Source: an uncultured virus (IMG/VR IMGVR_UViG_3300042448_001291) (taxonomy: Duplodnaviria; Heunggongvirae; Uroviricota; Caudoviricetes). Taken from it: a DNA stretch of 64,000 bases. The stretch's first letter is position 1, and every line of letters begins with the position of its first letter. This document shows positions 4,662-52,173 of the stretch, piece by piece. The DNA lies in IMG/VR virus record IMGVR_UViG_3300042448_001291; one strand, written 5' to 3'. The translations under genes were made by a program, and so were the position numbers. The notes beneath the pieces are model-generated. The model made no database searches. It was not told the origin of the DNA and saw only the letters and a program-made list of their open reading frames with translations.

Positions 4662-5219
4662 ATGAAACTCATTAACATATTAGAAGACGTTAACTCGAAA
4701 TGGGACGCTGTACTAGTTGCTGGGTTAAACTATCGAGAAGATGACAAGACCACTGAAGAACAGTTATCCTTATTTAAGAAGGGGTATGGTGGTAATGTTA
4801 AGGTGTTTAACTACAGCGATGCCACAAGTTCCGTTCTTAGTTTCATGAAGCAAAACCCTAAGATCCCGATATTCTTATTTAGTGCGGGTTGTAAAAATTC
4901 AGAAGATATTAGTATGAGCGAGTTTGTTGATGTTAAGAAACTATACATCATAGAACCATACGCCGCGGGTCCAAAGACCAAAACTAGTGTGCAGAACGCG
5001 GTTAGTAATGGTGTCCCAGCAAAGAATGTATTTGTGGGTCCACATGTTGGAAGAGGTTTGGGTGTTGTTGCTGGTGCCTCTAGTACAAATGCTAAGTCCC
5101 ATTGGGACGCTTTAACCATAGTCGGATCTAAGATTAAAGGTGGAAATGCAGGGAATGCAATACAAACACCTAGAGTGAAACGTAGTGCTAATTTCACTGT
5201 TGATGATTTGAATTTTTAA
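4662..5219 (+). CDS. Hypothetical protein, possible alpha/beta-hydrolase-like fold, C-terminal TVDDLNF
   Basis: LFSAG nucleophile-elbow-like motif, IIEP, late SHW. Confidence 0.6.
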   Translation: MKLINILEDVNSKWDAVLVAGLNYREDDKTTEEQLSLFKKGYGGNVKVFNYSDATSSVLSFMKQNPKIPIFLFSAGCKNSEDISMSEFVDVKKLYIIEPYAAGPKTKTSVQNAVSNGVPAKNVFVGPHVGRGLGVVAGASSTNAKSHWDALTIVGSKIKGGNAGNAIQTPRVKRSANFTVDDLNF

Positions 5220-7100: not shown

Positions 7101-7625
7101 ATGAAAGTTACAGTAATAAGCGAAAGCGAATATAAGCAACTTAAAGAGGGTTTTTTTAATAAAAAAGAAGACCCCTTTGACATTAACACATTCTTTAAGA
7201 ATATGTTTGGTGAGATGGTTATGAAAAAGGAAAGGGACGGAATTGTTTGGTATGGAAATGGTTATTTGAATCAAACTTCTTCTAGGGTTGTGGTATTCCC
7301 ACTTGAACCAGAAAAAGATGTACATATAAACACAAATGTAGTTGAGGGTATCGCTCTTTCATTGGGTGTTGATTTATTAAAAGCCAGAGACATGTTTATG
7401 AATTGGTTTGTAAAATACAATGTTAACAAAAGAGAAATGTTTGAAATATATAAAAAGATTTTTCCTGGAGATAGTTTGCATGGTGATAACCCAATAAGAA
7501 CGAAAGTGGCTTTTAATGTTTTATATAATGTTAGATTTTCTAAATTTATTGGTGGGTTAGTATACGGTAGAAAGAAAAAATTTAATAAAGATGATGCGCC
7601 ACCTTTAAGTACTGAACGATTTTAA
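7101..7625 (+). CDS. Hypothetical protein, paralog of 11805..12290
   Basis: Leader; EDPFDINTFFKNMFG vs EDMFSVDYFLKRMLG; shared ...IxxxLxx...NWF. Confidence 0.75.
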   Translation: MKVTVISESEYKQLKEGFFNKKEDPFDINTFFKNMFGEMVMKKERDGIVWYGNGYLNQTSSRVVVFPLEPEKDVHINTNVVEGIALSLGVDLLKARDMFMNWFVKYNVNKREMFEIYKKIFPGDSLHGDNPIRTKVAFNVLYNVRFSKFIGGLVYGRKKKFNKDDAPPLSTERF

Positions 7626-11013: not shown

Positions 11014-11406
11014 ATGAGAGTAGATAATCTAATAAAAAGGTTGGAATGGGCTCAAAGCATGAATATTCGATATGTTAATGTTACAACGCACCCAGTTACC
11101 GGACACCACATTCTCACAGGTGTAACTGCTGACGGAGAGATAAAACAAATTTACCCAATGTCTGATGAAGAAAAAGAACAGCAAAAAGCATTAAAACCTG
11201 TAAGCAACAAACCTAAAAAAGAAAACCCCCCAGTAAGAAGGTATCCAAGACCTAGTGATGGTGAAGATATGCCAGATGCAGCAAGTGACGCGTATGATTT
11301 ATATATGGGTTATGAAAGAGGTCGATCAGGTTCTTATGGCGAATATGATGATGAGTTATTTGAATCAGTTAAAAAAATTAAAGAACAATTTAAAAGATTC
11401 TTATAG
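11014..11406 (+). CDS. Hypothetical protein with C-terminal LFESVKKIKEQFKRFL motif
   Basis: ORF after TATTTATA; leader-like helix at the C-terminus. Confidence 0.75.
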   Translation: MRVDNLIKRLEWAQSMNIRYVNVTTHPVTGHHILTGVTADGEIKQIYPMSDEEKEQQKALKPVSNKPKKENPPVRRYPRPSDGEDMPDAASDAYDLYMGYERGRSGSYGEYDDELFESVKKIKEQFKRFL

Positions 11407-11449: not shown

Positions 11450-11818
11450 ATGATAATAAAATTAACAGAGAAAGAATTATTAAACATCGTAAAACGTGTC
11501 ATTAAAGAAAGAGTGATTGAAAAAGAGGGGGAAATGTTTGATGATGCTTATACTAGCGACGAAGATGCCGATCATGGTAATAAAGAAGAAGAAGTTATTG
11601 ATTATGATTCTGAAGAACATGAAGATGATTGGGAAAACATGCAAAAGCATGATAGATTAAAGTCAAGTCAAAAAAATAAAAACGCTGCAAATATTCAATA
11701 CGGTAGAATGGAATGGAGGAAAGAATATGAAAAACCCTGGTCTCCAATTAAATCAAGCGACATGTCATTAGAAAAATATCTTGCTACCAAAAAACAAAAG
11801 AGGGATGAAAACATCTAA
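11450..11818 (+). CDS. Acidic hypothetical protein with leader
   Basis: MIIKLTEKELLNIVKRVIKE. Confidence 0.75.
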   Translation: MIIKLTEKELLNIVKRVIKERVIEKEGEMFDDAYTSDEDADHGNKEEEVIDYDSEEHEDDWENMQKHDRLKSSQKNKNAANIQYGRMEWRKEYEKPWSPIKSSDMSLEKYLATKKQKRDENI

Positions 11819-18010: not shown

Positions 18011-19303
18011 ATGAAAAAAATAGTTATAACAGAAGCCCAAGCGAAGAAATTAGTGGATTCAATAATTAATGAACAAGGGGAACAACCACAGCAAGATCAA
18101 CAACCACAACAAGGTGAAATAAGATATCGTTTAGGTCCTTTAGATTTTATTGTAAAAGACGGAAACCCTTTTTATCTTGGAGAAGATGGTCAGAGAAACG
18201 ATTTACCGAAATTAAGCCAAATAGAGATTATTATACATCCCAAAAACCTAGAGCGTGACGATATGTCTGGTCAAATGAGTGCAGGTAATAATGTTTTTGG
18301 AATTTATGAGGGTGAAGCAACTCAATTAGCAAGGAATTTGGCAAGGAAAATGGTAGGGTCGTTTGCAAATCCTGATACGGAAAAACCGAGAGGCCCTGGA
18401 TTTGAGGTGATTGTTTTTGATGACCTTGTACGTAAAGTACCTATATGGGTTAAAGTAAACGTATTATCGGCTGTACCAGCGGGAGGAGACGTTCGTGAAC
18501 CAGAAGTTATAAAAGAAAAAGAAGGCGGTTCAATCATGTTTGCACAAACAAGAACAAAGAACTTTCTGTTAACAATTTCATCTCCTTTGGGTGTTGGTCG
18601 AGTATTTGGTGATGAACAACAAGTAGAAAAAGAAGTTGTATTTTTTTGTGTATCGTATAATGATGACACCAATGGAATTACAAAACTAACACAGAAAAAG
18701 GGTGCCACAAACGGAGCGGAATGGTTAAAAAATAAAGACAATACTATTGTGGGTGTTAAAGGGCCGTATAGGACCAGAGAAGAAGCACTTAAGGTGTGTC
18801 AACCAGAACTTCCAGAATTATTACCATTCGGTGATTTCTTCGCTAATAACGTGTCGAAAATTAAATTGTCGCCGTCAATGCCGTTTGTTAAGCAGTTGAA
18901 GGAATACTTCGATGCTGGTGGAAAACTATCTAAGATAACCATTAAAGCGTCAGCATCTAGCGTTCCTGCGGGACACATGGAGGCGGACCCTAATGCAGAT
19001 CTTTGGAAAGATGTAAAAACATATGATAACGCCGCAACAGGAACTAACGATGACAGAACGGGTAACTTACAATTAACAAAAGCAAGAGCATATAATCTAT
19101 ATGCAGCACTAATTCAAATGTTCCCACAACTTACTAATATTCCAAGAGAATTAATCGCATCAGGATCTATCGGTATTCCTTATAAAGGTAAACAAAAACC
19201 AAAACCGGGACAAAACCCTAACGACCCATCATTAAAAGGTGATGATCCAAATGATCCAAAATACGCTAATTTCAGAAGAGTTGATTTGATATTAAACAAA
19301 TAG
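18011..19303 (+). CDS. Leader-bearing protein with C-terminal OmpA-like (peptidoglycan-binding) domain
   Basis: ITIKASAS...GNLQLTKARAYNL...NFRRVDL. Confidence 0.6.
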   Translation: MKKIVITEAQAKKLVDSIINEQGEQPQQDQQPQQGEIRYRLGPLDFIVKDGNPFYLGEDGQRNDLPKLSQIEIIIHPKNLERDDMSGQMSAGNNVFGIYEGEATQLARNLARKMVGSFANPDTEKPRGPGFEVIVFDDLVRKVPIWVKVNVLSAVPAGGDVREPEVIKEKEGGSIMFAQTRTKNFLLTISSPLGVGRVFGDEQQVEKEVVFFCVSYNDDTNGITKLTQKKGATNGAEWLKNKDNTIVGVKGPYRTREEALKVCQPELPELLPFGDFFANNVSKIKLSPSMPFVKQLKEYFDAGGKLSKITIKASASSVPAGHMEADPNADLWKDVKTYDNAATGTNDDRTGNLQLTKARAYNLYAALIQMFPQLTNIPRELIASGSIGIPYKGKQKPKPGQNPNDPSLKGDDPNDPKYANFRRVDLILNK

Positions 19304-43854: not shown

Positions 43855-44730
43855 TATAGGCCGTATGGTTTTACATACATTCACCACCACTTTGTTTTTC
43901 TAAACAAAGAAAATAAAACTCTGAGAATACAAGTTTTAACGAAACTCTTTAAAAGGATTATTTGATTCCCCTTATTTCCACTAACTTTTGATTAGTAAGT
44001 TTCAGCCACGGTCAATTAGATTAACCAATCCTTTCGTAACACCCTACTCTATTAGTACTCATCACTCATCAAATCTGCCGACCTGATTCAACCTTGCGGG
44101 TTTAGAGAACTTTCTTAAAAATCATATTGGGCTTGAGACCCTTTATGGCTGTGAACCCCTCACAACTATGTAGTGACCTATCGGACATTACGCACGAACA
44201 CTTTTTCTTTTTATGTATGATTTTTATACCAAAATAAAAATTTAGTTTCCGAATTATTCAGGTAGCGGTTCGTGACCAGCCAAATCACCTTTTGAGCGAC
44301 TCGATACTAAACTACCCGATATGACATCCCTGTCATCATATTTTTGGTTTCCTTCGAGATTAAACCCTTGGTAGGATTTATTCAAGGACACTAACAGCAC
44401 CACCTGTTTTTTGTCATACCTTCCGTCTTACGACGCTACGGTTTTAAGACCACCATTGTATTGAATTACGCAATGATATAGTCGGATAACTATACTTCTT
44501 ACATGAACTCTATGGATTATTCTTATTGATGTTCCCATCTCAACCAAACAACTCGGATTGCTTGGTCATCCAACCCTTTCGCTACGGAGTTACCCTCACT
44601 ACTTCAGGTTAAATGATATTCCACTTGTCTACTCGAGATCCATTTCTGAATCCGCAACTTATCCTAACCAAGGACTTGTCACTTTATCCCACTTTCATGG
44701 TTTATTTTGTTGACCATAGACGGCCAATAT
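43855..44730 (-). ncRNA. Large (~870 nt) structured ncRNA, GOLLD/ROOL-class candidate
   Basis: No convincing ORF; TATATTTG promoter at 44767-44774; terminator below; 5' GGCCGT(CT)ATGGT pairs with 3' ACCATACGGCC; many hairpins. Confidence 0.7.
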
Positions 44731-44809
44731 TTTTAAATCAAAGATCTATTATTGTTACTTGTTATGCAAATATAGAGAAAAGAATTGAAATAAAAAACTT
44801 TTTTTAAAA

Positions 44810-45004
44810 TTATTTCTTTTTATTTTTTTTAACTTCATAACTTCCACCCATATCATGGGTGACTTCTGGGGCCGCTTCAACTTTTTTAACACCTCTCCAC
44901 TCTTCTTTGGATACGTATTTCCATTGATTACCAACCATTTGGTTCGCTTGTTTATCATCAACTCTGATAATGCTACCCGTTTTTACATTTTTTAAACATT
45001 TCAT
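44810..45004 (-). CDS. Small basic hypothetical protein
   Basis: 64-aa ORF. Confidence 0.65.
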   Translation of the reverse strand: MKCLKNVKTGSIIRVDDKQANQMVGNQWKYVSKEEWRGVKKVEAAPEVTHDMGGSYEVKKNKKK

Positions 45005-45033
45005 TTTACAAATTTTAACTAATATAAATAAAA

Positions 45034-45495
45034 TTAAATTCTAACTAAATGGTTTGCTGCATAAGTTGTTAAAGCACCTAAATGTTTATATCTAACTTTA
45101 TACCCCATACCTTCTACTAAACCAACTGCTTGTCTTAAAACACTATTTGATTTAAATTTAGGATCTGGATTCAAATCAATATCAATCCATTTAGGTTTTG
45201 GTAAACCATTTTCTTTTAGATATTCCGCCATTTCAATAGATTTCCAAACCTCATTTAACAACCTAGATGGTGTGTTATATTCCATACCTACTGATTCGCG
45301 AGTGCACAATACATGGGCACCTTTACCTTGTGTGTACAACGCAATAACAACTCCGTAAATTGTTTTTTTGTTACCATAACATTGTGAATCAGACCCTATG
45401 AGAATCTCAACGTTCTCTCTAGTCGAGATGTATTCTCTAACATACTCAATTAAATTTGGAACCGGTGTTCCATAGAGAGTTCTAAATTGTTTCAT
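45034..45495 (-). CDS. RNase H-like YkuK/DUF458 family protein
   Basis: ILIGSDSQ, RLLNEVWKSIE, IDIDLN, AANH. Confidence 0.8.
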   Translation of the reverse strand: MKQFRTLYGTPVPNLIEYVREYISTRENVEILIGSDSQCYGNKKTIYGVVIALYTQGKGAHVLCTRESVGMEYNTPSRLLNEVWKSIEMAEYLKENGLPKPKWIDIDLNPDPKFKSNSVLRQAVGLVEGMGYKVRYKHLGALTTYAANHLVRI

Positions 45496-45522
45496 TTTAT
45501 TTCATTTAATATAGTTATTTTG

Positions 45523-45612
45523 CGGAAAGTGAGGGACTTGAACCCTCGCGCCAGTTTGACCCGACCTAGCAGTTTAGCAAACTGCCCCCTTCACCAACTT
45601 GGGTAACTTTCC
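45523..45612 (-). tRNA. tRNA-Ser(GCT), array 1
   Basis: Cloverleaf; GCAGT-TTGCTAA-ACTGC; long variable arm. Confidence 0.95.
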
Positions 45613-45613
45613 G

Positions 45614-45844
45614 TTAGAAGATTTGTTTTTCTTGTCTTCTTTTTGCTTCTTCGGCCTCCTTTACCATTCTTATCCAAGTAATAGAGACATCAATGGGCGC
45701 TAAAACCCAAGCCATCATTAATACCATAATAGAATCTAGTTCTGGTGATGTTCCGTAATCAACACCTCTGTTTCTATACTTTTTATTTAATTGATAGAAA
45801 CAATAAACAACACATAATACATAATACCCAATTAGTATACTCAT
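45614..45844 (-). CDS. Small membrane protein within tRNA array 1
   Basis: MSILIGYYVLCVV..., two hydrophobic segments. Confidence 0.65.
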   Translation of the reverse strand: MSILIGYYVLCVVYCFYQLNKKYRNRGVDYGTSPELDSIMVLMMAWVLAPIDVSITWIRMVKEAEEAKRRQEKQIF

Positions 45845-45856
45845 AATTAAAAATTT

Positions 45857-45931
45857 TGGTTGTCCCCCAGGGAATCGAACCCCACTTATCTGGACCAAAA
45901 CCAGATGTAATAACCGATATACGAGAGGACA
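45857..45931 (-). tRNA. tRNA-Gln(TTG), array 1
   Basis: TCTGG-TTTTGGT-CCAGA; encoded CCA. Confidence 0.95.
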
Positions 45932-45992
45932 AAATAATCATCATTGAGAATGTAGATTTTCACTAACTCGATTTAGCGGTCTCTTTGATGAT

Positions 45993-46067
45993 TGGAGCAG
46001 ATGAAAGGAATCGAACCTTCGTCTCCAACTTGGAAGGATGGAGTAATAACCATTATACGACATCTGC
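45993..46067 (-). tRNA. tRNA-Gly(TCC), array 1
   Basis: CCATC-CTTCCAA-GTTGG; encoded CCA. Confidence 0.95.
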
Positions 46068-46124
46068 ATTTGGTGACTGAAAAACATCTATCTTTCTTTT
46101 TGGTATTGTCACCGGATACCCATG

Positions 46125-46196
46125 AGCCCCCGCCCGGAATCGAACCGAGTTATCATGATTACAAGTCATGCGCATCGCCTGCAATGCTTAAAGGGC
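46125..46196 (-). tRNA. tRNA-Thr(TGT), array 1
   Basis: CATGA-CTTGTAA-TCATG. Confidence 0.92.
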
Positions 46197-46201
46197 TGTT
46201 G

Positions 46202-46273
46202 AGCAGTAGAGAGGAATCGAACCTCCGTCTCCACCTTGGCAAGGTGGAGTAATGACCATTATACGACTACTGC
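46202..46273 (-). tRNA. tRNA-Gly(GCC), array 1
   Basis: CCACC-TTGCCAA-GGTGG. Confidence 0.95.
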
Positions 46274-46277
46274 ATTG

Positions 46278-46350
46278 TAGAAGATGAGGGAATTGAACCC
46301 CCGACTTTTTGCATGTAAGACAAACACTCTACCAACTGAGTTAATCTTCT
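46278..46350 (-). tRNA. tRNA-Val(TAC), array 1
   Basis: TTTGT-CTTACAT-GCAAA. Confidence 0.95.
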
Positions 46351-46355
46351 ATTTG

Positions 46356-46429
46356 TGGACCAGGATGGACTCGAACCATCGACTTTCACATTATGAGTGT
46401 GCTACTCTAACCAACTGAGTTACAAGTCC
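46356..46429 (-). tRNA. tRNA-Ile2(CAT) (lysidine type; elongator Met not excluded), array 1
   Basis: CACA-CTCATAA-TGTG; G1:C72, A73; not initiator-like; two other CAT tRNAs are in array 2. Confidence 0.8.
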
Positions 46430-46432
46430 AGG

Positions 46433-46538
46433 TGCCGGAGGAAGGATTGATTACCTACACGGTGTCCATTTCGGATACACCACCCACCTAGGAAGGGAAC
46501 GTCTCAAGGTTGTACACACCTCTTTTCGCCACTCCGGC
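46433..46538 (-). ncRNA. Aberrant tRNA-Leu-like RNA (expanded D region, degenerate T loop)
   Basis: Perfect acceptor stem GCCGGAG/CTCCGGC-A; extra AGGT/ACCT hairpin; long variable arm; no TTC in the T loop. Confidence 0.55.
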
Positions 46539-46543
46539 ATGTG

Positions 46544-46700
46544 TGAGTTACGGGGGATTCGAACCCAAGAATATAATTTGTAATCTACTACGTACTCGAT
46601 TAACAACATTCTTTTTACCATAGTCATCTCCGCGGCCACAGAGTTTATAGACACCTTCAATTACTAGGAAGGTCCGGATCGCCACTCCGGAAGGTAACTC
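46544..46700 (-). ncRNA. 157-nt tRNA-like RNA with ~85-nt insertion
   Basis: Acceptor GAGTTAC/GTAACTC-A; GGGTTCGAATCCC T loop; TCCGGA/TCCGGA and CCTTC/GAAGG arms. Confidence 0.55.
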
Positions 46701-46706
46701 ATTTTG

Positions 46707-46787
46707 TGGGAGTAAGTGGACTCGAACCACTGAACTCGATGAGGGGGGATTTACAGTCCCCTGCAATTGCCGCTATGCGATACTCCC
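46707..46787 (-). tRNA. tRNA-Tyr(GTA), array 1
   Basis: GGGGA-CTGTAAA-TCCCC. Confidence 0.95.
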
Positions 46788-46833
46788 ATTCTGTACATTC
46801 CTAACCTGACGTATACATACAAACCGTTTTCCG

Positions 46834-46914
46834 TGACCAAGGAGAGATTCGAACTCTCACGTCTTTCGACATTGGTTCCTAAGACCAACGTGTCTACCAT
46901 TCCACCACTCGGCC
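46834..46914 (-). tRNA. tRNA-Leu(TAG), array 1
   Basis: TTGGT-CTTAGGA-ACCAA; long variable arm. Confidence 0.95.
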
Positions 46915-46919
46915 ATTTG

Positions 46920-46991
46920 CGTCCCTACCTGGATTCGAACCAAGAATAATTGATTAACAGTCAAACGTGATCACCATTTCACCATAGAGAC
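46920..46991 (-). tRNA. tRNA-Asn(GTT), array 1
   Basis: TTGA-CTGTTAA-TCAA. Confidence 0.92.
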
Positions 46992-46998
46992 ATTTTTG

Positions 46999-47072
46999 TC
47001 GAGATAGCAGGATTCGAACCTACGGCCTCTTGCTCCCAAAGCAAGCGCGATACCGGACTACGCTATATCTCG
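46999..47072 (-). tRNA. tRNA-Pro(TGG), array 1
   Basis: CTTGC-TTTGGGA-GCAAG. Confidence 0.95.
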
Positions 47073-47079
47073 ATGATTG

Positions 47080-47151
47080 TAGACCCACGTGGACTCGAAC
47101 CACGAATATCTCATTAGAAGTGAGAAGTTATATCCCTTTAACTATGGATCC
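47080..47151 (-). tRNA. tRNA-Arg(TCT), array 1
   Basis: TCTCA-CTTCTAA-TGAGA. Confidence 0.95.
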
Positions 47152-47159
47152 AATTGCTG

Positions 47160-47246
47160 TGCCCCAGGCGGGAATCGAACCCGCACGAACATTTACGGTT
47201 CACGGGATTTTAAGTCCCGCGCGTCTACCAGTTCCGCCACCAGGGC
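47160..47246 (-). tRNA. tRNA-Leu(TAA), first gene of array 1
   Basis: CGGGA-CTTAAAA-TCCCG; long variable arm. Confidence 0.95.
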
Positions 47247-47302
47247 AATTTTACACAATATGTCAAAGATCTAACTAATATAGGAAATAAACCCAAGAAA
47301 AC

Positions 47303-47335
47303 AAAAAACCCGAACTTTTTTTAAGGTTCGGGTTT
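47303..47335 (-). terminator. Attenuator terminator upstream of tRNA array 1
   Basis: AAACCCGAAC-CTTAAAAAAA-GTTCGGGTTT followed by TTTGTTTT. Confidence 0.85.
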
Positions 47336-47365
47336 CGATATTTTGATGTTTTAAATCCTAATTTC

Positions 47366-47464
47366 TCACAACTCCGAACTTGATACACATAACTGCACAC
47401 CATACCCGTTACCATTGTTACCCGGTCTACTCGTAAGCGTCAATATGTTATTTAAATTCTTCAT
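47366..47464 (-). CDS. 32-aa leader peptide of tRNA array 1: MKNLNNILTLTSRPGNNGNGYGVQLCVSSSEL
   Basis: ATG..TGA between promoter and terminator; codons 3-25 all match array-1 anticodons. Confidence 0.85.
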   Translation of the reverse strand: MKNLNNILTLTSRPGNNGNGYGVQLCVSSSEL

Positions 47465-47482
47465 CGTTATTATAAGTATATG

Positions 47483-47513
47483 CAAATATATAAAAGTTTT
47501 TTGAAAAAACAAC
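47483..47513 (-). promoter_or_regulatory. Bacteroidetes-type sigma promoter for leader 1
   Basis: GTTG-19 nt-TATATTTG (consensus TTTG-19..21-TAnnTTTG). Confidence 0.7.
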
Positions 47514-47578
47514 TATATTGAAAAAATTTGTTTAATAATTAAGAAATATTCTTTATATTGCATTATAAAATCTTAATT

Positions 47579-48100
47579 ATGAATCTAAGAGAAGCCACTG
47601 CGGAATTACATAGTAAAGCAGAAAAAATGGAATTTAACCAAAAAATGTTTAGAGGTGAATTGAGTAAGAAAGAGTACTTACATTACCTTATCCAACAATC
47701 AGTAATATTTCAATGTATTGAGGAACACACATTACCACAAATAACACCTGAATTAAAAAGATTAAAAAATGTCTTTGAGGATATTCAAGAGTTACAAAAA
47801 GATGTAAGAGATAAATTGCCAGGATTAGAATCAACAAAAAAATATGGTATCTATTTGGAATCATTAAAAGGAGAAAAAGTTCTTGCTCATGTTTATTTAA
47901 ATTACTTAGCGTTGGTTTTTGGTGGCCAAATGATGAAATCTAAAGTTCCTGGTAATGGTAAAATGTATATGTTTGAGAATGTTCAAGAAGTAATTCAAAA
48001 TGTGAGAGGATTTCAAACTGATGACATGGCTGAAGAAGTAAATAAAGGTTTTAATTTTATAATTGATATATTAGATGAATTACAAAAAAACGCTGGATAG
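47579..48100 (+). CDS. Heme oxygenase (HemO/Ho1-like)
   Basis: LREATAELHSKAE proximal His; LAHVYLNYLALVFGGQMMK distal helix. Confidence 0.88.
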   Translation: MNLREATAELHSKAEKMEFNQKMFRGELSKKEYLHYLIQQSVIFQCIEEHTLPQITPELKRLKNVFEDIQELQKDVRDKLPGLESTKKYGIYLESLKGEKVLAHVYLNYLALVFGGQMMKSKVPGNGKMYMFENVQEVIQNVRGFQTDDMAEEVNKGFNFIIDILDELQKNAG

Positions 48101-48710
48101 TATTGCAAATCGAATACAAGATTTAATAACAATTACCGCTAACGGTGTTGAAATTCCTACTGAAGATTTTGGTTGGAAAAATAAAAGATATGTTGGTAGT
48201 AAGTTTCGTATCGCACATATAGAAAGATACTCCGATAAAAATCTAGAAGTATTACACTTTACGTGTTTTCCAGATTCAACATATCAACACCCAATTTTTG
48301 GTTTTGATATTATTACAACAGATAAGAAACCACTTGCAGCATTTTTAGATTGGTCTCCGGTTGATAATGTTTTAAGTTATATATGTCTTGAAGAATTTAA
48401 AAAACTATACCCATTACCTGAATGGGCTAAAATTATTTTTTCACAAACACCAATAGCAATTATTCCAGATGATTCTGAAATGGAAAAATTAGGAGAAGTT
48501 GTAATTCAAAGTTTTGAAGATTATTTAACTATTTTAAATAATTCGACCCCATCAATTAAAAGATCGAATTACATTATTGCAGCACAAAATAGATATTGTG
48601 AACAACAGCAAAAAAACGAAAGGACATATAATGTGTTAAAAGCAAAACTTGGCGAAGAAAAGGCCAAGTTCTTTATGTCAGAAATTTTATTCCCAAGAAT
48701 CGCAAATTAA
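48075..48710 (+). CDS. Ferredoxin-dependent bilin reductase (PcyA/PcyX-like)
   Basis: FRIAHIE, EVLHFTCFP, PIFGFDI, FLDWSP, LPEWA..IFS, QNRYCEQQQKNERT...LFP. Confidence 0.85.
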   Translation: MNYKKTLDSIANRIQDLITITANGVEIPTEDFGWKNKRYVGSKFRIAHIERYSDKNLEVLHFTCFPDSTYQHPIFGFDIITTDKKPLAAFLDWSPVDNVLSYICLEEFKKLYPLPEWAKIIFSQTPIAIIPDDSEMEKLGEVVIQSFEDYLTILNNSTPSIKRSNYIIAAQNRYCEQQQKNERTYNVLKAKLGEEKAKFFMSEILFPRIAN

Positions 48711-48883
48711 AATCCTCTCCTTTTGTAAACACGGCTAGGTGCACGATACAAAATATTTGGTTGATATTTTCCTATCGTTGCTTTTCTTTTAAAATGATTA
48801 TGATATCTGTGATGATGTGGTTTAATTATTACACAGCCACTTAACGTAGCAATAATCAGTATAAAAAATATTATCTTTTTCAT
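48707..48883 (-). CDS. 58-aa His/Arg-rich lipoprotein (not in ORF track)
   Basis: MKKIIFFILIIATLSGC lipobox, then HHHRYHNH; upstream TATTTAT. Confidence 0.6.
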   Translation of the reverse strand: MKKIIFFILIIATLSGCVIIKPHHHRYHNHFKRKATIGKYQPNILYRAPSRVYKRRGF

Positions 48884-48899
48884 ACTAATAAATATCCAG

Positions 48900-48971
48900 T
48901 ACTCGGTACGGGATTCGAACCCGTGCTACGTCCGTGAAAGGGACGCGACCTAACCACTAGTCGAACCGAGC
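48900..48971 (-). tRNA. tRNA-Glu(TTC), array 2
   Basis: CGTCC-CTTTCAC-GGACG. Confidence 0.95.
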
Positions 48972-48976
48972 AAGTG

Positions 48977-49062
48977 CGGAGAGAGTAGGATTCGAACCCA
49001 CGGTACCTTTCAGTACTTCGGTTTTCAAGACCGACGCGATAGACCAACTCTGCCATCTCTCC
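48977..49062 (-). tRNA. tRNA-Ser(TGA), array 2
   Basis: TCGGT-CTTGAAA-ACCGA; long variable arm. Confidence 0.95.
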
Positions 49063-49064
49063 GT

Positions 49065-49250
49065 TGACACCTTCATTTATCCAACTCACAGGTGTCTTAG
49101 ATGTCCCCTTTCGGGTTAGGAATAATCATTTCGTCCTCACGAGGTCGGGGTGATGTCCCCTGACGTTCTCCCTATACGTCAATGTACGTTTCCATATGGT
49201 GGTCAAACCATTTCTTTTCATATTGGATATACTATTCAGTGACTAACCGA
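49065..49250 (-). ncRNA. Putative structured RNA between tRNA-Asp and tRNA-Ser
   Basis: Hairpins TGACGT/ACGTCA, GGGG/CCCC, CCT-CGTG-AGG, CCC-GAAA-GGG, GACACCT/AGGTGTC. Confidence 0.5.
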
Positions 49251-49256
49251 ATCGTG

Positions 49257-49330
49257 CGGACTGTACGGGACTCGAACCCGTGAACTCTACCGTGACAGGG
49301 TAGCATGATAACCAACTTCACCAACAATCC
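49257..49330 (-). tRNA. tRNA-Asp(GTC), array 2
   Basis: CTACC-CTGTCAC-GGTAG. Confidence 0.95.
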
Positions 49331-49414
49331 GTGTTTGATACTAACTCACCTTAAATTGCACCTACTGGTCATGCCATGGTTAACAAAGTCCTCGTTGAGT
49401 TAGATCAAAAAAGG

Positions 49415-49601
49415 TTACAGGTTTTTCGTACCCATTCGTACATCATAACAAATACATTTCTATATCTGTGGTTACATTTTCGTCATTGGGTTAATTACAC
49501 CCGACTTGTAGCAACTCTACTTTCACCGCTATGATACCGCGAATCAAGACGGGTGTTAAGATTTATAGACAGTGGGTTTCCACCACCGTCGTCACCTGTA
49601 A
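49415..49601 (-). ncRNA. Putative ~190-nt multibranch RNA
   Basis: Closing stem TTACAGGT/ACCTGTAA around arms GACGGTGG/CCACTGTC, ACACCCG/CGGGTGT, ACCCA/TGGGT. Confidence 0.55.
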
Positions 49602-49606
49602 TTTCT

Positions 49607-49726
49607 TTACTTTCTTCTACGCTGACGTAAAGCGCAGCCAGCAACAGATTTATATGCTTTTGTAGTTCTTTTACTTCTTAAAGCACTACTTGCTTTTCTT
49701 GCCACTCTTCTTGACGTTCTAGCCAT
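49607..49726 (-). CDS. 39-aa Arg/Lys-rich protein
   Basis: MARTSRRVARKASSALRSKRTTKAYKSVAGCALRQRRRK. Confidence 0.65.
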   Translation of the reverse strand: MARTSRRVARKASSALRSKRTTKAYKSVAGCALRQRRRK

Positions 49727-49741
49727 AGTTAAAAGTTTTTG

Positions 49742-49813
49742 TTGCGAGGGAAGGGATCGAACCTCCGACCTTTGGGTTATGAGCCCAACGAGCCACCGCT
49801 GCTCTACCTCGCG
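49742..49813 (-). tRNA. tRNA-fMet(CAT), array 2
   Basis: C1:A72 mismatch; TTGGG-CTCATAA-CCCAA with three G:C pairs. Confidence 0.95.
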
Positions 49814-49870
49814 ATGTTTTGCAAATATAGAAAATATTTTTAAAATAAAAAAATATTCCAAATATTTTTG

Positions 49871-49939
49871 TTGCGGGGCCAGGAATCGAACCTGAATATC
49901 TGGCTTATGAGACCAAACGGATTACCTAATCTCCCCACA
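49871..49939 (-). tRNA. tRNA-Met(CAT) with short D arm, array 2
   Basis: TTGGT-CTCATAA-GCCAG; acceptor TGTGGGG/CCCCGCA. Confidence 0.8.
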
Positions 49940-49940
49940 A

Positions 49941-50017
49941 TGGGGTGATCGACGGGATTCGAACCCGCTTTATTCTAGTGCCACAAACTAGTGCTCCACC
50001 GTACGAGCATCGATCAC
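49941..50017 (-). tRNA. tRNA-His(GTG), array 2
   Basis: CTAGT-TTGTGGC-ACTAG; C73 and encoded CCA. Confidence 0.92.
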
Positions 50018-50019
50018 AG

Positions 50020-50090
50020 AGTCACGTGCAGGAATCGAACCTGCGTAGAAGGTTTTGCAGACCTCCGCCTAACCACTCGGCCAACCTGAC
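50020..50090 (-). tRNA. tRNA-Cys(GCA), array 2
   Basis: GAGGT-CTGCAAA-ACCTT; U73. Confidence 0.95.
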
Positions 50091-50097
50091 TTATTTG

Positions 50098-50168
50098 AGG
50101 TCTCACAGGGATTCGAACCCCAATCATCTCGTCCGTAGCGAGACGTTTTTCCATTAAACTATGAAACC
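50098..50168 (-). tRNA. tRNA-Arg(ACG), array 2
   Basis: TCTCG-CTACGGA-CGAGA. Confidence 0.95.
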
Positions 50169-50172
50169 ATTT

Positions 50173-50592
50173 TTATAGGCAATTTTGCTTATATTTTTCC
50201 TCAGTACCAATTCCAATTGGGACAAACAACGCAAAACCATCGTCATCTTCAAAATGGTTACAAGTATCCTCAAATACATTTTGAAATTTTGTTCTCATAT
50301 AAACAAATTCCTTTCCATTCCATTTGGCCACTTGTGCGTTCCTGTGTTCACCAATATAATATTGACCCTCAACTAAATCTTTTTTAGGGATTGCACCTGC
50401 CTCAATTAATTTTGGGACATAATAATCCTTCCATTCCTGAATGTCTACTTTTGGTAAATCAGGTACGTCCCTTGGAGTATTAATTTTTGGGAGATTTTCC
50501 CAATACTCTTTTATTCTTTGTTTTCTTTCCTCTCTTATTTGGATAAGTTGTGCTTTCGCTTTTAACTTAAATCCTTCTACGTTGTTTTCCAT
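50173..50592 (-). CDS. Hypothetical protein within tRNA array 2
   Basis: 139-aa ORF. Confidence 0.75.
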   Translation of the reverse strand: MENNVEGFKLKAKAQLIQIREERKQRIKEYWENLPKINTPRDVPDLPKVDIQEWKDYYVPKLIEAGAIPKKDLVEGQYYIGEHRNAQVAKWNGKEFVYMRTKFQNVFEDTCNHFEDDDGFALFVPIGIGTEEKYKQNCL

Positions 50593-50632
50593 ATTTTACA
50601 AATTGTAAGTGTTTTACTTTACATATTATTAG

Positions 50633-50703
50633 CACGGGTAGAGAGATTCGAACTCCCATCGAGGGTTTTGGAGACCCGTATGCTGCCGTTGCACCATACC
50701 CGC
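50633..50703 (-). tRNA. tRNA-Trp(CCA), array 2
   Basis: GGGT-CTCCAAA-ACCC; G73. Confidence 0.95.
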
Positions 50704-50708
50704 GTGTG

Positions 50709-50782
50709 TGACCCCTTTAGGACTCGAACCTAAAACCCCTACATTAAAAGTGTAGTGCGCTAACCAATTGTGCCAAGAGATC
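50709..50782 (-). tRNA. tRNA-Lys(TTT), array 2
   Basis: CTACA-CTTTTAA-TGTAG. Confidence 0.95.
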
Positions 50783-50842
50783 ATACTAACATTTTTTTGC
50801 ACACTAACATAAATTATGTTATCGTACAAATTTTTGTTATTG

Positions 50843-50915
50843 TGGAACCTCGGAGAGTCGAACTCCATCCTCTGGATTTTCAGTCCAGCGTACGCACCGG
50901 CTATACAAAAGTTCC
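50843..50915 (-). tRNA. tRNA-Phe(GAA), array 2
   Basis: CTGGA-CTGAAAA-TCCAG. Confidence 0.95.
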
Positions 50916-50920
50916 TTCAG

Positions 50921-50993
50921 TTCTTAGGGGTAGATTCGAACTACCAACCTCCTCGGTATCAGCGAGGTACTCTCACCATTGAGTTACCTAAGA
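50921..50993 (-). tRNA. tRNA-Ile(GAT), array 2
   Basis: CCTCG-CTGATAC-CGAGG. Confidence 0.92.
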
Positions 50994-50998
50994 ATTTG

Positions 50999-51068
50999 TG
51001 GACACGTTGGGAATCGAACCCATTCACTCTGATTGCAAATCAGGTGGTCTGCCATTGACATCCGGCCC
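50999..51068 (-). tRNA. tRNA-Ala(TGC), first gene of array 2 (irregular acceptor stem)
   Basis: CTGA-TTTGCAA-TCAG; G3:U70. Confidence 0.8.
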
Positions 51069-51151
51069 ATTTATATTGTGCCAAAACTAACTTTTTTTAT
51101 GAGATTTGGCCACTTATAGAAAATCATAACCGGCCAAAACCCACATAAAAC

Positions 51152-51186
51152 AAAAAAACCTCGAGATTTTTAAGTCCCGAGGTTTT
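51152..51186 (-). terminator. Attenuator terminator upstream of tRNA array 2
   Basis: AAAACCTCGGGA-CTTAAAAA-TCTCGAGGTTTT followed by TTTGTTTT. Confidence 0.85.
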
Positions 51187-51209
51187 CTAATATTTTAAGT
51201 TAAACTAGT

Positions 51210-51308
51210 TTAACCAACATCAGTGTCATCGAGACATATGGACATAGAACGCTCATCCGCCCATTTTGAACAGATTGTAAACGACATTGTATGTTTTGTT
51301 TGTCTCAT
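51210..51308 (-). CDS. 32-aa leader peptide of tRNA array 2: MRQTKHTMSFTICSKWADERSMSICLDDTDVG
   Basis: ATG..TAA between promoter and terminator; 17 of codons 5-23 match array-2 anticodons. Confidence 0.85.
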   Translation of the reverse strand: MRQTKHTMSFTICSKWADERSMSICLDDTDVG

Positions 51309-51338
51309 TGAATTTTGTTTTGTTTTAATCTTCTTTTG

Positions 51339-51370
51339 CAAAGATAATAATAAATACTCTTAAAAACAAG
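51339..51370 (-). promoter_or_regulatory. Bacteroidetes-type promoter for leader 2 with embedded TATTTAT
   Basis: CTTG-20 nt-TATCTTTG; TATTTAT at 51350-51356. Confidence 0.7.
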
Positions 51371-51384
51371 AAAAGTTTAAAAAT

Positions 51385-52173
51385 TTATTTACCCCAGTGC
51401 TTTATTCTTAATTCATCCATATCAATTGGTTCACGTTTCATATGATTACCCCTTGAGAAATTTGCACCTTTTTTAAGATACCCACCCAAAAAGTTTCTTC
51501 GCATTCTATTTGAATTATTTGGTTCAGACCCATGAACGCAATGTGAGTGTAATAGCACAACCTGACCTTTTCGAAGATATCCCTCTACCTTACGAAAATC
51601 ATGACCTTCTGGCATCACACATGGTTTACCTCTTTCATTACTCCAAAATGCTGGGTTTGTTTTAGTTCTTTCTTCATCCACCTCAATTGGTAATACTGGA
51701 AGACGATGCGAACCCTCATAATTCCAAACTGCACCATTTTCAGGGTCATGATTATCTAACGCTAATGCGGTGTTAATAATCTCGTTATGACCACATTTGG
51801 TATAAAAGGCGTTCTGATGTTGGTCGCGACCTAATTGTCCTGGCGGTTTAAAATAACACCAACTTTGCATTCCCTGGATTTCACCCTCCATTAAAAATTC
51901 AACCGCTTCTAGAATTTTTGGGTGAGCGAATAATTTTTCTAATTTATCAGAAAGTTTATGTGGGTAAGCAAACGGATCCCATTCACACCATATTTTACCG
52001 TCTGGGGCTTCGGTCCCGGTTCTTTCGTTTCTTAACCTATCTAATTCATCGTTTATCTCATCACATTCTTCTTCAGTTAATAGTTCCAAGGTGGTAAACC
52101 CCCTATATCTCCAATCAAATGTTATTTGTTGAACCTCAAGGTCACTAAGATGTTTAAAATTACTCATATACAT
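51385..52173 (-). CDS. Phytanoyl-CoA dioxygenase (PhyH)-family 2OG-Fe(II) oxygenase
   Basis: FKPPG...HQNAFY, ALDNHDPENG...GSH, HGSEPNNSNRMRR. Confidence 0.85.
   Translation of the reverse strand: MYMSNFKHLSDLEVQQITFDWRYRGFTTLELLTEEECDEINDELDRLRNERTGTEAPDGKIWCEWDPFAYPHKLSDKLEKLFAHPKILEAVEFLMEGEIQGMQSWCYFKPPGQLGRDQHQNAFYTKCGHNEIINTALALDNHDPENGAVWNYEGSHRLPVLPIEVDEERTKTNPAFWSNERGKPCVMPEGHDFRKVEGYLRKGQVVLLHSHCVHGSEPNNSNRMRRNFLGGYLKKGANFSRGNHMKREPIDMDELRIKHWGK

What the first reader, a model, noticed from the sequence alone, without database searches (positions are those of the whole stretch)
45523..51370. Codon-inventory attenuators: leader peptides that list the tRNAs of their own downstream array
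Seen in sequence: both minus-strand tRNA arrays share one layout: promoter, 32-codon ORF, intrinsic terminator, then 13 tRNAs. Each leader's codons match the tRNAs of its own array, down to the isoacceptor. Array 1 carries Ile2(CAT), Arg(TCT) and Ser(GCT), and leader 1 uses ATA, AGA and AGT. Array 2 carries Ile(GAT), Arg(ACG) and Ser(TGA), and the core of leader 2 uses ATC, CGT and TCN. Every tRNA species in each array has a cognate codon in its leader, and the 3' end of each leader can pair with the 5' arm of its terminator. Established: this is the layout of ribosome-mediated attenuation (trp/his/thr leaders), which normally uses runs of one or two codon types to control biosynthetic genes; host anticodon nucleases such as PrrC and PARIS/AriB deplete tRNAs during infection. 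Inference: a ribosome stalling at ANY listed codon frees the antiterminator and switches on the array that restores that tRNA, forming an OR-gate sensor of tRNA depletion and a plausible inducible counter-defence. I know of no description of such a system, but I cannot search the literature.
Basis: partly seen in the sequence, partly recalled or inferred. Interest (0 to 1): 0.97.

Follow-up and report, generated by a model that had tools for sequence, protein, structure and literature searches.

The report
Leader-peptide attenuators gating phage tRNA arrays
Each of this lake phage's two tRNA gene arrays sits behind a tiny translated test gene, spelled in the codons those tRNAs read, and a switchable transcription stop, so the phage probably makes tRNAs only when ribosomes read those codons slowly.

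Summary
The minus strand carries two arrays of 13 tRNAs. Each is preceded by a conserved promoter-like box, a 32-codon ORF and an intrinsic terminator. Each leader has a cognate codon for 13 of 13 tRNAs of its own array, under relaxed wobble. Other small ORFs in the window do this about 1% of the time.

The strong evidence is comparative. In 54 distinct leader/array units from related lake-phage contigs, 519 of 528 tRNAs have a cognate codon in their own leader. Permuting the codon/tRNA labels gives 77% (p=5e-5). Homologous leaders change their core (Ala/Ile/Phe/Lys/Cys/Arg versus Pro/Asn/Gln) in step with the array.

Three mutually exclusive helices (1:2, 2:3 antiterminator, 3:4 terminator) are supported by compensatory changes.

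The same design appears in Cellulophaga phage phi4:1, Salicola phage SCTP-2 and huge phage LR745206.

Best reading: ribosome-mediated attenuation that senses decoding capacity and feeds back on tRNA transcription. There is no expression data, and the counter-defence role is untested.

Eight literature searches found no description. Earlier notes of this scan report the same idea on other genomes.

The parts
51339..51346 (-). Promoter-like -7 box TATCTTTG of leader 2 (Bacteroidota-type TAnnTTTG; the consensus is recalled, not from a call)
   Evidence: The box is nearly invariant in 40 aligned homologues. The motif is not enriched in the window as a whole.
51210..51308 (-). Leader ORF 2, 32 codons plus stop: MRQTKHTMSFTICSKWADERSMSICLDDTDVG
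   Evidence: It is kept as a 31- or 32-codon ORF in 39 distinct homologues, with indels in multiples of 3.
51301..51307 (-). Region 1 of attenuator 2 (UGAGACA, overlapping the start codon). It pairs with region 2.
   Evidence: RNAalifold consensus helix. It is invariant, so there is no covariation to test.
51229..51235 (-). Region 2 of attenuator 2 (GUCUCGA, codons 25-27). It pairs either with region 1 or with the terminator's 5' arm (antiterminator).
   Evidence: 99.4% of 343 cells paired, 2 pairs with changes on both sides, 0/500 shuffles as high.
51187..51223 (-). Conserved hairpin B, which holds the last four codons and the stop codon and lies between region 2 and the terminator
   Evidence: consensus structure; near-invariant
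51146..51188 (-). Intrinsic terminator 2: 5' arm CCUCGGGA(C) at 51174-51182, 3' arm UCUCGAGG plus U tract from 51166 down
   Evidence: 100% of 490 cells paired, 2 pairs with changes on both sides.
48899..51068 (-). tRNA array 2 (13 tRNAs): Ala Ile Phe Lys Trp / Arg Cys His Met fMet / Asp / Ser(tga) Glu. A 139-aa ORF lies inside it (50173-50592).
47483..47490 (-). Promoter-like -7 box TATATTTG of leader 1
   Evidence: the region is conserved in 16 homologues.
47366..47464 (-). Leader ORF 1, 32 codons plus stop: MKNLNNILTLTSRPGNNGNGYGVQLCVSSSEL. 11 of 31 codons end in G, against 10% in genes.
   Evidence: It is kept as a 32-36-codon ORF in 15 distinct homologues.
47453..47459 (-). Region 1 of attenuator 1 (GAAUUUA, codons 2-4)
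   Evidence: the 1:2 helix is 97.3% paired and 3 of 7 pairs carry compensatory changes.
47374..47381 (-). Region 2 of attenuator 1 (AAGUUCGG, codons 28-31). It mimics the terminator's 3' arm.
47299..47335 (-). Intrinsic terminator 1 (AAACCCGAACC ... GUUCGGG plus U tract)
47256..47284 (-). Conserved element (TATATTAG ... TCTTTGACATATTG) between terminator 1 and tRNA-Leu(taa). It may be a second promoter that bypasses the attenuator.
   Evidence: The same element is the only promoter-like sequence before the leaderless mini-arrays of relatives. By my reading its first box matches TAnnTTTG in 10 of the 15 loci printed, and not in the window.
45522..47246 (-). tRNA array 1 (13 tRNAs): Leu(taa) Arg(tct) Pro Asn Leu(tag) Tyr / CAT (probably Ile2) Val Gly(gcc) Thr Gly(tcc) Gln / Ser(gct)

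Best explanation
Both units are ribosome-mediated (leader-peptide) transcription attenuators that control tRNA genes instead of amino-acid biosynthesis genes. Transcription starts at the promoter and a ribosome translates the roughly 32-codon leader. The middle of the leader holds at least one codon for every tRNA encoded downstream. If all of these codons are decoded quickly, the ribosome reaches the 3' end of the ORF. There it covers region 2 and melts the hairpin that holds the stop codon. The terminator's 5' arm is then free to pair with its 3' arm, and transcription stops before the array. If decoding of any listed codon is slow, the ribosome stalls upstream. Region 2 then pairs with the terminator's 5' arm (antiterminator) and RNA polymerase reads into the tRNA genes. 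New tRNAs speed up decoding and close the loop, giving a demand-driven, self-limiting supply of phage tRNAs, block by block. Without translation, region 1 (at the start codon) pairs with region 2 and the default is termination. Shown here: the parts, the conservation of the ORF, the co-variation of codons with array content, and the alternative helices with compensatory changes. Inferred: translation itself, stalling as the signal, the kinetics, and that a stall at every position in the core works.
For: Window: both leaders cover 13/13 tRNAs of their own array but only 6/13 and 8/13 of the other array. 26/31 and 21/31 leader codons are cognate to the own array, against 52% and 48% expected (binomial P=0.0002 and 0.024). 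Relatives: across 54 distinct leader/array units, 519/528 tRNAs have a cognate codon in their own leader. Permuting codon/tRNA labels, which keeps the relatedness of the sequences, gives 76.6% +- 5.1 (p=5e-5). Using core codons only gives 501/528 against 54%. In 25 non-truncated units the count is 281/281. The homologous leader 2 has two forms. One reads ...SF.ICSKWADER., before Ala Ile Phe Lys Trp Arg Cys His. The other reads ...SPMNQQNWNEQP, before Pro Asn Trp Gln. Within the second form, CTA/CTG is present in 9/9 leaders whose array has Leu(tag) and in 1/11 without it (p=1e-4), at four different codon positions. Core Cys codons are present in 2/2 against 0/18. The ORF is kept at 31-32 codons (39 variants) or 32-36 codons (15 variants) with in-frame indels. 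Structure: the 1:2 helix of leader 1 is 97.3% paired, with 3 pairs compensatory and 0/500 shuffles as high. The antiterminator of leader 2 is 99.4% paired, with 7 cells changed on both sides and 0/500 shuffles as high. The terminator is 100% paired with 12 such cells, and the same two columns of the 5' arm co-vary with both partners. Masked folds switch as the model predicts. Replication: phi4:1 has three units covering 7/7, 10/10 and 6/6 tRNAs. LR745206 has two units. SCTP-2 has three units with binomial P of 5e-5, 1e-5 and 2e-5. In 5 of 10 units the ORF's 3' end is complementary to the terminator's 5' arm beyond shuffled sequence.
Against: There is no expression evidence. Metatranscriptome contigs laid on the region covered only tRNA parts at low identity. 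In the window alone the antiterminator duplex is no stronger than shuffled sequence (P=0.45 and 0.11). In the first 40-sequence alignment no pair co-varied. The compensatory changes come mainly from one variant group and may be only one or two events. Leaders are not purged of codons when tRNAs are absent. Leader variants L220, L238, L244/L248 and L253 keep Ala/Ile/Phe/Lys codons without those tRNAs, and the L253 leader 1 stands before only three tRNAs. Overall 63% of non-array codon families are also present (28% in the core). True misses: Arg(acg) has no CGN codon in L230 and L251, and His has none in L251. The His, Tyr and Arg associations within type B are not significant. 13/13 coverage arises in about 1% of random small ORFs. 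A conserved promoter-like element lies downstream of terminator 1, and TAnnTTTG boxes lie before tRNA-Ala and before the initiator tRNA, so parts of the arrays may be transcribed regardless of the attenuator. A stall late in the core leaves region 1 free unless a trailing ribosome covers it. The design was not found in T5, in the LR756501 region, or in cr272_1.
Confidence: 0.78

Rival explanations
1. It is the same attenuator, but the sensed quantity is aminoacylation (amino-acid supply) or general translation speed, not the abundance of particular tRNAs. The leader would report starvation or ribosome trouble, and the tRNA genes would simply be its cargo.
For: Classical attenuators sense charged tRNA (established knowledge, recalled). 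The leaders are rich in many amino acids, and some earlier notes of this scan describe leaders holding all 20 amino acids (unchecked). Leaders keep codons for tRNAs that the array lacks.
Against: A general sensor has no need to track array content. Yet codon families follow the tRNAs of the own block (p=5e-5 by label permutation; CTA with Leu(tag) 9/9 against 1/11). The match reaches isoacceptor level: AGA against CGT, AGT against TCN, ATA against ATC. Making more tRNA does not relieve amino-acid starvation.
Confidence: 0.08
2. The small ORFs encode peptides with a function of their own, or are merely adapted to phage tRNAs for efficient translation. The terminators would be ordinary ends of these small genes, and the tRNA arrays would be driven by promoters further downstream.
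For: The C-terminal residues ...LDDTDVG are conserved. A promoter-like element lies after terminator 1. phi4:1 and SCTP-2 annotate some of these ORFs as hypothetical proteins.
Against: The conserved C-terminal codons coincide with hairpin B and region 2. The one freely varying position (GTN) sits at a bulge, so RNA structure explains the conservation. The middle of the peptide is rebuilt between relatives while its match to the array is kept. In the type-B relatives the terminator is about 20 nt from the first tRNA, with no room for a promoter. Compensatory changes maintain an antiterminator that has no role in a plain gene end.
Confidence: 0.05
3. Chance, or an artefact of choosing the ORF and start codon after the fact. 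The leaders are ordinary spurious ORFs in AT-rich spacers.
For: 13/13 coverage occurs in about 1% of small ORFs. Both leaders start at an internal ATG of a longer listed ORF. TAnnTTTG is not enriched in the window.
Against: The joint chance for both units is about 1e-4 to 1e-5. The ORFs are conserved with in-frame indels in 54 variants. Label-permutation gives p=5e-5. The design is replicated independently in three other phage lineages.
Confidence: 0.02
4. The leader RNA binds tRNAs directly through codon-anticodon pairing, as a T-box does, without a ribosome.
For: The leader carries triplets complementary to every downstream anticodon.
Against: No T-box or other Rfam family matched the leaders (E up to 1). 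The triplets are all in one frame between an ATG and a stop, the ORF length is conserved and indels come in threes. No T-box-like tRNA 3'-end-binding bulge was sought or seen.
Confidence: 0.03

Closest known systems
Leader-peptide transcription attenuators of amino-acid operons (trpL, hisL, leuL, thrL, pheL; the multivalent ilvGMEDA leader, which is also 32 codons). Recalled from established knowledge; general descriptions were seen only in search listings and abstracts.
   Same: Both have a promoter, a short translated ORF with regulatory codons, an intrinsic terminator, an antiterminator that overlaps the ORF's 3' end, and a 1:2 helix that gives termination by default. Both place the decision in how fast a ribosome decodes the leader.
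   Different: The regulated genes here are tRNAs, not biosynthetic enzymes, so the product feeds back directly on the sensed step. The regulatory codons are not runs of one to three amino acids but a list of up to 13 codon families, mostly one or two codons each, spread over about 20 codons. The elements are phage-encoded and repeated once per tRNA block.
Attenuators of aminoacyl-tRNA synthetase genes (for example pheST) and T-box riboswitches (recalled)
   Same: They adjust the supply of a component of the decoding apparatus in response to how well a codon or tRNA is served.
   Different: pheST uses a run of Phe codons and controls a protein. T-boxes bind one uncharged tRNA directly, without a ribosome. 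No T-box match was found here.
Phage tRNA gene clusters as described so far (for example Morgado and Vicente 2019, PMC6409571, passages read by term search)
   Same: The same objects are concerned: blocks of tRNA genes in large phages, including the Cellulophaga phages, whose clusters that paper describes as a conserved central block with differing side blocks.
   Different: That paper contains no occurrence of promoter, terminator, attenuat- or leader. The regulatory units described here are not part of that picture.

Membership tests
Ribosome-mediated (leader-peptide) transcription attenuator | Short ORF with start and stop codon between the promoter and the regulated genes, conserved as an ORF | tested here: met
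   There are 39 + 15 distinct homologous ORFs of 31-36 codons with in-frame indels.
Ribosome-mediated (leader-peptide) transcription attenuator | Regulatory codons in the leader that correspond to what is regulated | tested here: met
   13/13 in both units; 519/528 in relatives, p=5e-5. The form is unusual: a list, not a run.
Ribosome-mediated (leader-peptide) transcription attenuator | Intrinsic terminator between the leader and the regulated genes | tested here: met
   The helix is 100% paired in 49 homologues with compensatory changes.
Ribosome-mediated (leader-peptide) transcription attenuator | Antiterminator mutually exclusive with the terminator and overlapping the 3' part of the ORF | tested here: met
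   (99.4% paired, changes on both sides in 7 cells). It is weak in the window taken alone.
Ribosome-mediated (leader-peptide) transcription attenuator | Upstream helix (1:2) that sequesters the antiterminator when the leader is not translated | tested here: met
   For leader 1 there is covariation. For leader 2 the helix is predicted and invariant only.
Ribosome-mediated (leader-peptide) transcription attenuator | Read-through rises when the cognate charged tRNA is scarce and depends on translation of the leader | not testable with these tools
   RNA runs were uninformative. This needs reporter, Term-seq and Ribo-seq experiments.
Ribosome-mediated (leader-peptide) transcription attenuator | Regulated genes are amino-acid biosynthesis, transport or synthetase genes (the classical scope) | tested here: not met
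   The genes downstream are tRNAs. This is why I file it as a new variant and not as a member of a described attenuator family.
T-box riboswitch | Match to the T-box RNA family (specifier loop, T-box sequence) | tested here: not met
   No T-box hit in 44500-52000 at E up to 1

The most novel reading that the evidence does not exclude
Codon-inventory attenuators would be a general device of tRNA-bearing phages, in hosts as far apart as Bacteroidota and Gammaproteobacteria. Each tRNA block would be an autonomous sense-and-respond cassette. One major trigger would be host immunity or phage-induced shut-off that cuts or depletes specific tRNAs (anticodon nucleases such as PrrC, or PARIS; names recalled). 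The leader would then act as an inducible counter-defence switch that replaces exactly the tRNA that was hit.
Probability: 0.25. Interest if true: 0.97.

Novelty: new variant of a known kind. Interest (0 to 1): 0.9.

Why it matters
Why phages carry tRNAs, and how they use them, is an open question. How these genes are regulated has barely been considered. If the reading is right, phages measure decoding capacity codon by codon and make tRNAs on demand, using the oldest known RNA switch in a new role, with the product feeding back directly on the sensor.

It would give a sequence-only way to read which tRNAs belong to one regulatory block. It would explain the block structure and the modular exchange of phage tRNA clusters. 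It would also provide natural parts for sensing single-tRNA availability.

It is testable now, because the same design occurs in cultured phage-host pairs: Cellulophaga baltica with phi4:1, and Salicola with SCTP-2.

Tried and rejected
1. Whole genome: none is held for this window.
2. Close relatives among deposited phages: none. Only tRNA-level hits were found.
3. An exact 38-base leader pattern in viral contigs gave 0 hits.
4. The 14-base pattern was too unspecific; most of its 119 loci were chance hits.
5. Of the 80 loci found through the neighbouring PhyH-like gene, 8 had any tRNA beside it.
6. Sequencing runs: the stretch is held by many lake-water DNA runs. The six RNA runs held only small shares. 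The four RNA runs that I laid gave contigs over tRNA parts only, mostly below 95% identity, and nothing over the leader. This says nothing about transcription, starts or ends.
7. Full-length MFE folds always keep the terminator, as expected for a kinetic switch, so I used truncated and masked folds instead.
8. RNAalifold on the first 40 leader-2 units found no covarying pair, because my search patterns had fixed those bases. A pattern anchored at the start codon removed that bias.
9. Rare-codon bias is significant for leader 1 (P=0.017) but not for leader 2 (P=0.096).
10. The motif TTCTTTGAMAT is not enriched in the window (15 found, 11 expected).
11. Other phages examined without finding such units: the LR756501.1 region (16 tRNAs), cr272_1 (2 tRNAs) and T5, whose small ORFs abut tRNAs without terminators. 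One ORF reported by my scan in SCTP-2 (at L264 19808) covers 2/4 tRNAs and is probably spurious.
12. A search for relatives of the SCTP-2 unit gave only tRNA hits.
13. No colinearity between codon order and tRNA order was seen by eye.

Full report
**What is there.** The window (33% G+C) carries 26 tRNA genes on the minus strand. ARAGORN finds 25. Rfam's tRNA model adds one at 50999-51068 (30.1 bits, gathering score 29), and ARAGORN at a lowered threshold reads it as tRNA-Ala(tgc) without adding false calls. The tRNAs form two arrays of 13, at 45522-47246 and 48899-51068. Two plus-strand genes separate them: a heme oxygenase and a ferredoxin-dependent bilin reductase. Under the wobble rules I used, the 26 tRNAs read every sense codon except CGG, and the codon sets of the two arrays do not overlap.

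Upstream of each array lie three elements:
- a TAnnTTTG box;
- a 32-codon ORF, 47366-47464 and 51210-51308;
- a hairpin followed by a T run.

**Does the leader list its array?** With four-way reading by U34 tRNAs, each leader has a cognate codon for 13 of 13 tRNAs of its own array. With strict wobble the counts are 12/13 (Leu-TAG against CTT) and 13/13. Cross-coverage is only 6/13 and 8/13. In leader 1, 23 consecutive codons are cognate to array 1.

Chance is not negligible for a single ORF:
- Random 32-codon strings drawn from the window's gene codon usage reach 13/13 at 0.0057 (array 1) and 0.0009 (array 2).
- Drawn from raw trinucleotide frequencies, the rates are 0.0072 and 0.0040.
- Among 195 real ATG-ORFs of 25-45 codons in the six frames, three reach 13/13 for each set. 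One of the three is the leader itself and the other two are 41-44 codons long.

The window alone therefore gives a joint chance of roughly 1e-4 to 1e-5. That is suggestive but not overwhelming. Both leaders also start at an internal ATG of a longer listed ORF.

**Relatives.** No deposited phage is close. Related lake-phage contigs were found in three ways:
- through the neighbouring PhyH-like gene (231 matches, 80 kept, 8 of them with tRNAs beside the gene);
- through conserved leader and terminator words in IMG/VR;
- through the same words in metagenome contigs.

These gave 98 units and 68 distinct leader/array pairs, 54 of them with five or more tRNAs. Leader 2 occurs in two forms:
- Before arrays that start Ala Ile Phe Lys Trp / Arg Cys His Met, the core reads K H T M S F T I C S K W A D E R.
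- Before arrays that start Pro Asn Trp (Leu) Gln, the homologous core reads S P M N Q Q N W N E Q P.

The start (MRQ) and the last eleven codons stay the same in both forms.

Over the 54 units, 519 of 528 tRNAs have a cognate codon in their own leader. I then permuted which codon family belongs to which tRNA. This test leaves the relatedness of the sequences untouched. It gives 76.6% +- 5.1, and none of 20,000 permutations reached the observed value (p=5e-5). Other versions of the count:
- core codons only: 501/528, against 54% expected;
- strict wobble: 493/528;
- the 25 units whose arrays are not cut by a contig end: 281/281.

Five of the nine misses come from one locus where my script merged two arrays. 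One more miss is a Leu(taa) that belongs to a neighbouring mini-array.

Fine-scale results within the second form (20 distinct units):
- CTA/CTG is present in 9 of 9 leaders whose array holds Leu(tag) and in 1 of 11 without it (Fisher p=1e-4). It sits at four different codon positions, which argues for repeated gain.
- Core Cys codons: 2/2 against 0/18.
- Arg(acg): 2/4 against 1/16, not significant.
- His: 4/5 against 5/15, not significant.
- Tyr: not significant.

**The rule is one-sided.** Leaders also hold codons that the array does not serve: 63% of absent families overall and 28% in the core. Four leader variants (L220, L238, L244/L248, L253) keep Ala, Ile, Phe and Lys codons although their arrays begin at Trp. 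The L253 leader 1 stands before only three tRNAs. I read it as 'every tRNA needs its codon, extra codons are tolerated', but it is also what recent deletions would leave behind.

**RNA switch.** Leader 2 has four interacting segments:
- region 1 (UGAGACA, at the start codon);
- region 2 (GUCUCGA, codons 25-27);
- the terminator's 5' arm (UCGGGAC);
- the terminator's 3' arm (UCUCGAGG plus U tract).

A conserved hairpin that contains the stop codon lies between region 2 and the terminator.

I folded the transcript up to the terminator loop under different ribosome masks:
- with no ribosome, 1:2 forms and the 5' arm is free;
- with a ribosome on the start or stalled in the core, 2:3 (the antiterminator) forms;
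- with a ribosome at the stop codon, the 5' arm is free again.

In my first alignment of 40 units all these bases were invariant, partly because my search words had fixed them. A search anchored only at the start codon gave 49 distinct units. In these:
- the antiterminator is paired in 99.4% of 343 cells, with two pairs changed on both sides (7 cells); 0 of 500 shuffles reach the observed pairing or covariation score, though 40/500 reach the count of pairs;
- the terminator is paired in 100% of 490 cells, with 12 cells changed on both sides;
- the same two columns of the 5' arm change together with both partners, which is what mutually exclusive helices predict.

These changes come mostly from one variant group, so they may represent few events.

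For leader 1 (16 distinct units), the 1:2 helix (GAAUAUA with UAUGUUC) is paired in 97.3% of 112 cells. Three of its seven pairs carry compensatory changes (0/500 shuffles). In the window by itself, the duplex between the leader and the 5' arm is no better than shuffled sequence (P=0.45 and 0.11).

**Replication elsewhere.**

*Cellulophaga phage phi4:1* (NC_021788.1, cultured, host in the Bacteroidota) has three units made of a TAnnTTTG box, a small ORF, a terminator and a tRNA block:
- MKIQRLHLQELEQPIISGGTGV before Pro Glu Gln His Leu Leu Arg: 7/7 covered, with 11 consecutive cognate codons.
- An ORF inside the annotated gp075, (V/M)QLTKTGITVIDKTKGARAYLGDTVIG, before Ala Lys Ile Gly Met Asp Thr Val Arg Met: 10/10 covered. 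It has no in-frame ATG, so GTG is assumed as the start.
- MKTNYCTYNNSNWSFSYDTGSVCTLGSDGLIG before Tyr Ser Ser Asn Trp Phe: 6/6 covered.

*Huge phage LR745206.1* has two units. One begins MKNLNNIS, like leader 1 of the window, but has an Ile/Gly/Ala core before Ile Gly Met Gly Gly Ala.

*Salicola phage SCTP-2* (gammaproteobacterial host) has three units. Two are annotated as hypothetical genes 351 and 364. Their cores are built from Lys/Phe/Trp/Val/Ser/Gly, Thr/Ser/Glu and Gln/Tyr/Leu/Pro, matching the blocks behind them (binomial P=4.8e-5, 9.5e-6 and 2e-5).

In 5 of the 10 units tested, the 3' end of the ORF is complementary to the terminator's 5' arm beyond shuffled sequence.

I found no such units in the LR756501.1 region, in cr272_1 or in T5. 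My scan accepts only ATG starts and clear hairpins, so absences are weak.

**Caveats on control.** Between terminator 1 and tRNA-Leu(taa) lies a conserved element (TATATTWG ... GTTCTTTGACAT). In relatives whose three-tRNA mini-array has no leader, it is the only promoter-like sequence. It may be a second promoter that bypasses attenuator 1, although in the window its first box is degenerate. TAnnTTTG boxes also lie just before tRNA-Ala and before the initiator tRNA. Whether each 13-tRNA array is one transcription unit is unknown. No RNA data bear on any of this.

**Mechanism and odds.** I put 0.78 on ribosome-mediated attenuation that senses how fast the listed codons are decoded and feeds back on transcription of the tRNAs that read them. 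The parts, the ORF conservation, the codon/array co-variation and the alternative helices are shown. Translation, stalling, timing and the OR-gate property are inferred. For stalls late in the core, region 1 must be covered by a trailing or initiating ribosome. Whether the natural trigger is a mismatch in codon usage, decay of host tRNAs during infection, or tRNA-cleaving defence systems is open. I give the counter-defence reading 0.25.

**Known or new.** The mechanism is that of the trp/his/leu/thr/ilv leaders (recalled). The differences are the target (tRNA genes), the form of the signal (a list of up to 13 codon families) and the phage setting. Eight full-text searches of the held library found nothing on leader peptides or attenuators before tRNA genes (listings and abstracts seen). 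The survey of viral tRNA clusters, PMC6409571, has no occurrence of promoter, terminator, attenuat- or leader (passages seen by term search). Subscription journals and supplements were not searched.

Earlier notes of this scan report the same idea on at least 54 other genomes, including close relatives of this phage. They are not independent evidence. I tested one of their claims here, covariation of the antiterminator, and it holds.

Noticed in passing
window 47558-48710 (+): A heme oxygenase (PF01126) and a ferredoxin-dependent bilin reductase (PF05996) overlap head to tail. They sit between the two tRNA arrays on the opposite strand, in a lake phage with Bacteroidota-type promoter boxes. 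In the nearest relative (L002) this gap instead holds a porin-like gene.
   Followed up: partly
window 47256-47284 (-); L262 about 11150-11184: A conserved element ...GTTCTTTGA(C/A)AT... lies directly upstream of tRNA-Leu(taa) in all relatives, with or without a leader. A near-identical GTTCTTTGAAGTATTG lies just before tRNA-Cys in the unrelated 735-kb phage LR756501.1. It is not enriched in the window. Its role (promoter, processing site or protein binding) is unknown.
   Followed up: partly
L239, L247, L221, L253, L084, L087: gap between tRNA-Leu(taa) and tRNA-Arg(tct): An 82-aa ORF with a hydrophobic N-terminus (MDILSFILGMSIVVVIAVAVVAVIAF...) is flanked by an inverted repeat (AACACTATCGTTCTTTGAAA ... 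TTTCAAAGACGATAGTGTT). It is inserted in some relatives and absent from the window, and looks like a small mobile cassette.
   Followed up: no
L245, L248 (gap after Leu(taa)); L062: HNH-endonuclease-like ORFs are inserted between tRNAs of the arrays in several relatives, as in phage T5. Array content (Thr, Asn, Gly-gcc, the Ala-Ile-Phe-Lys block) varies between close relatives.
   Followed up: no
L261 (NC_021788.1) 5055-5174 and 7183-7284: Two annotation problems in Cellulophaga phage phi4:1. The annotated TTG start of gp075 lies inside the promoter-like box of a leader unit. gp076 overlaps a tRNA-Ser(tga) that ARAGORN finds at lowered threshold, so it is probably not a gene.
   Followed up: partly
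window 49822-49829 (-) and 51082-51089 (-): TAnnTTTG boxes lie directly upstream of the initiator tRNA (49741-49813) and of tRNA-Ala (50999-51068). They may be internal promoters. The second is not conserved in L082.
   Followed up: partly
window 45613-45856, 46430-46705, 49063-49255, 49331-49740, 50173-50592 (-): The arrays contain gaps of 190-460 nt. One holds a 139-aa ORF with no Pfam match. The others hold nothing that ARAGORN or Rfam recognised at E up to 1. An RNase H-like protein (PF04308) follows array 1 at 45034-45495.
   Followed up: no
window 45522-51068: The 26 phage tRNAs read all sense codons except CGG under the wobble rules used. The two arrays split the code into two non-overlapping sets of 33 and 27 codons.
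   Followed up: yes
L264 (MF360958.1) 11735-11805 and 19191-19261: Two SCTP-2 leader units share an almost identical 70-nt upstream cassette (TTGAGC ... TATAAAT ... TAAGGT, then ATG) but have different leader ORFs. It looks as if a promoter/ribosome-site module is reused before each tRNA block.
   Followed up: no
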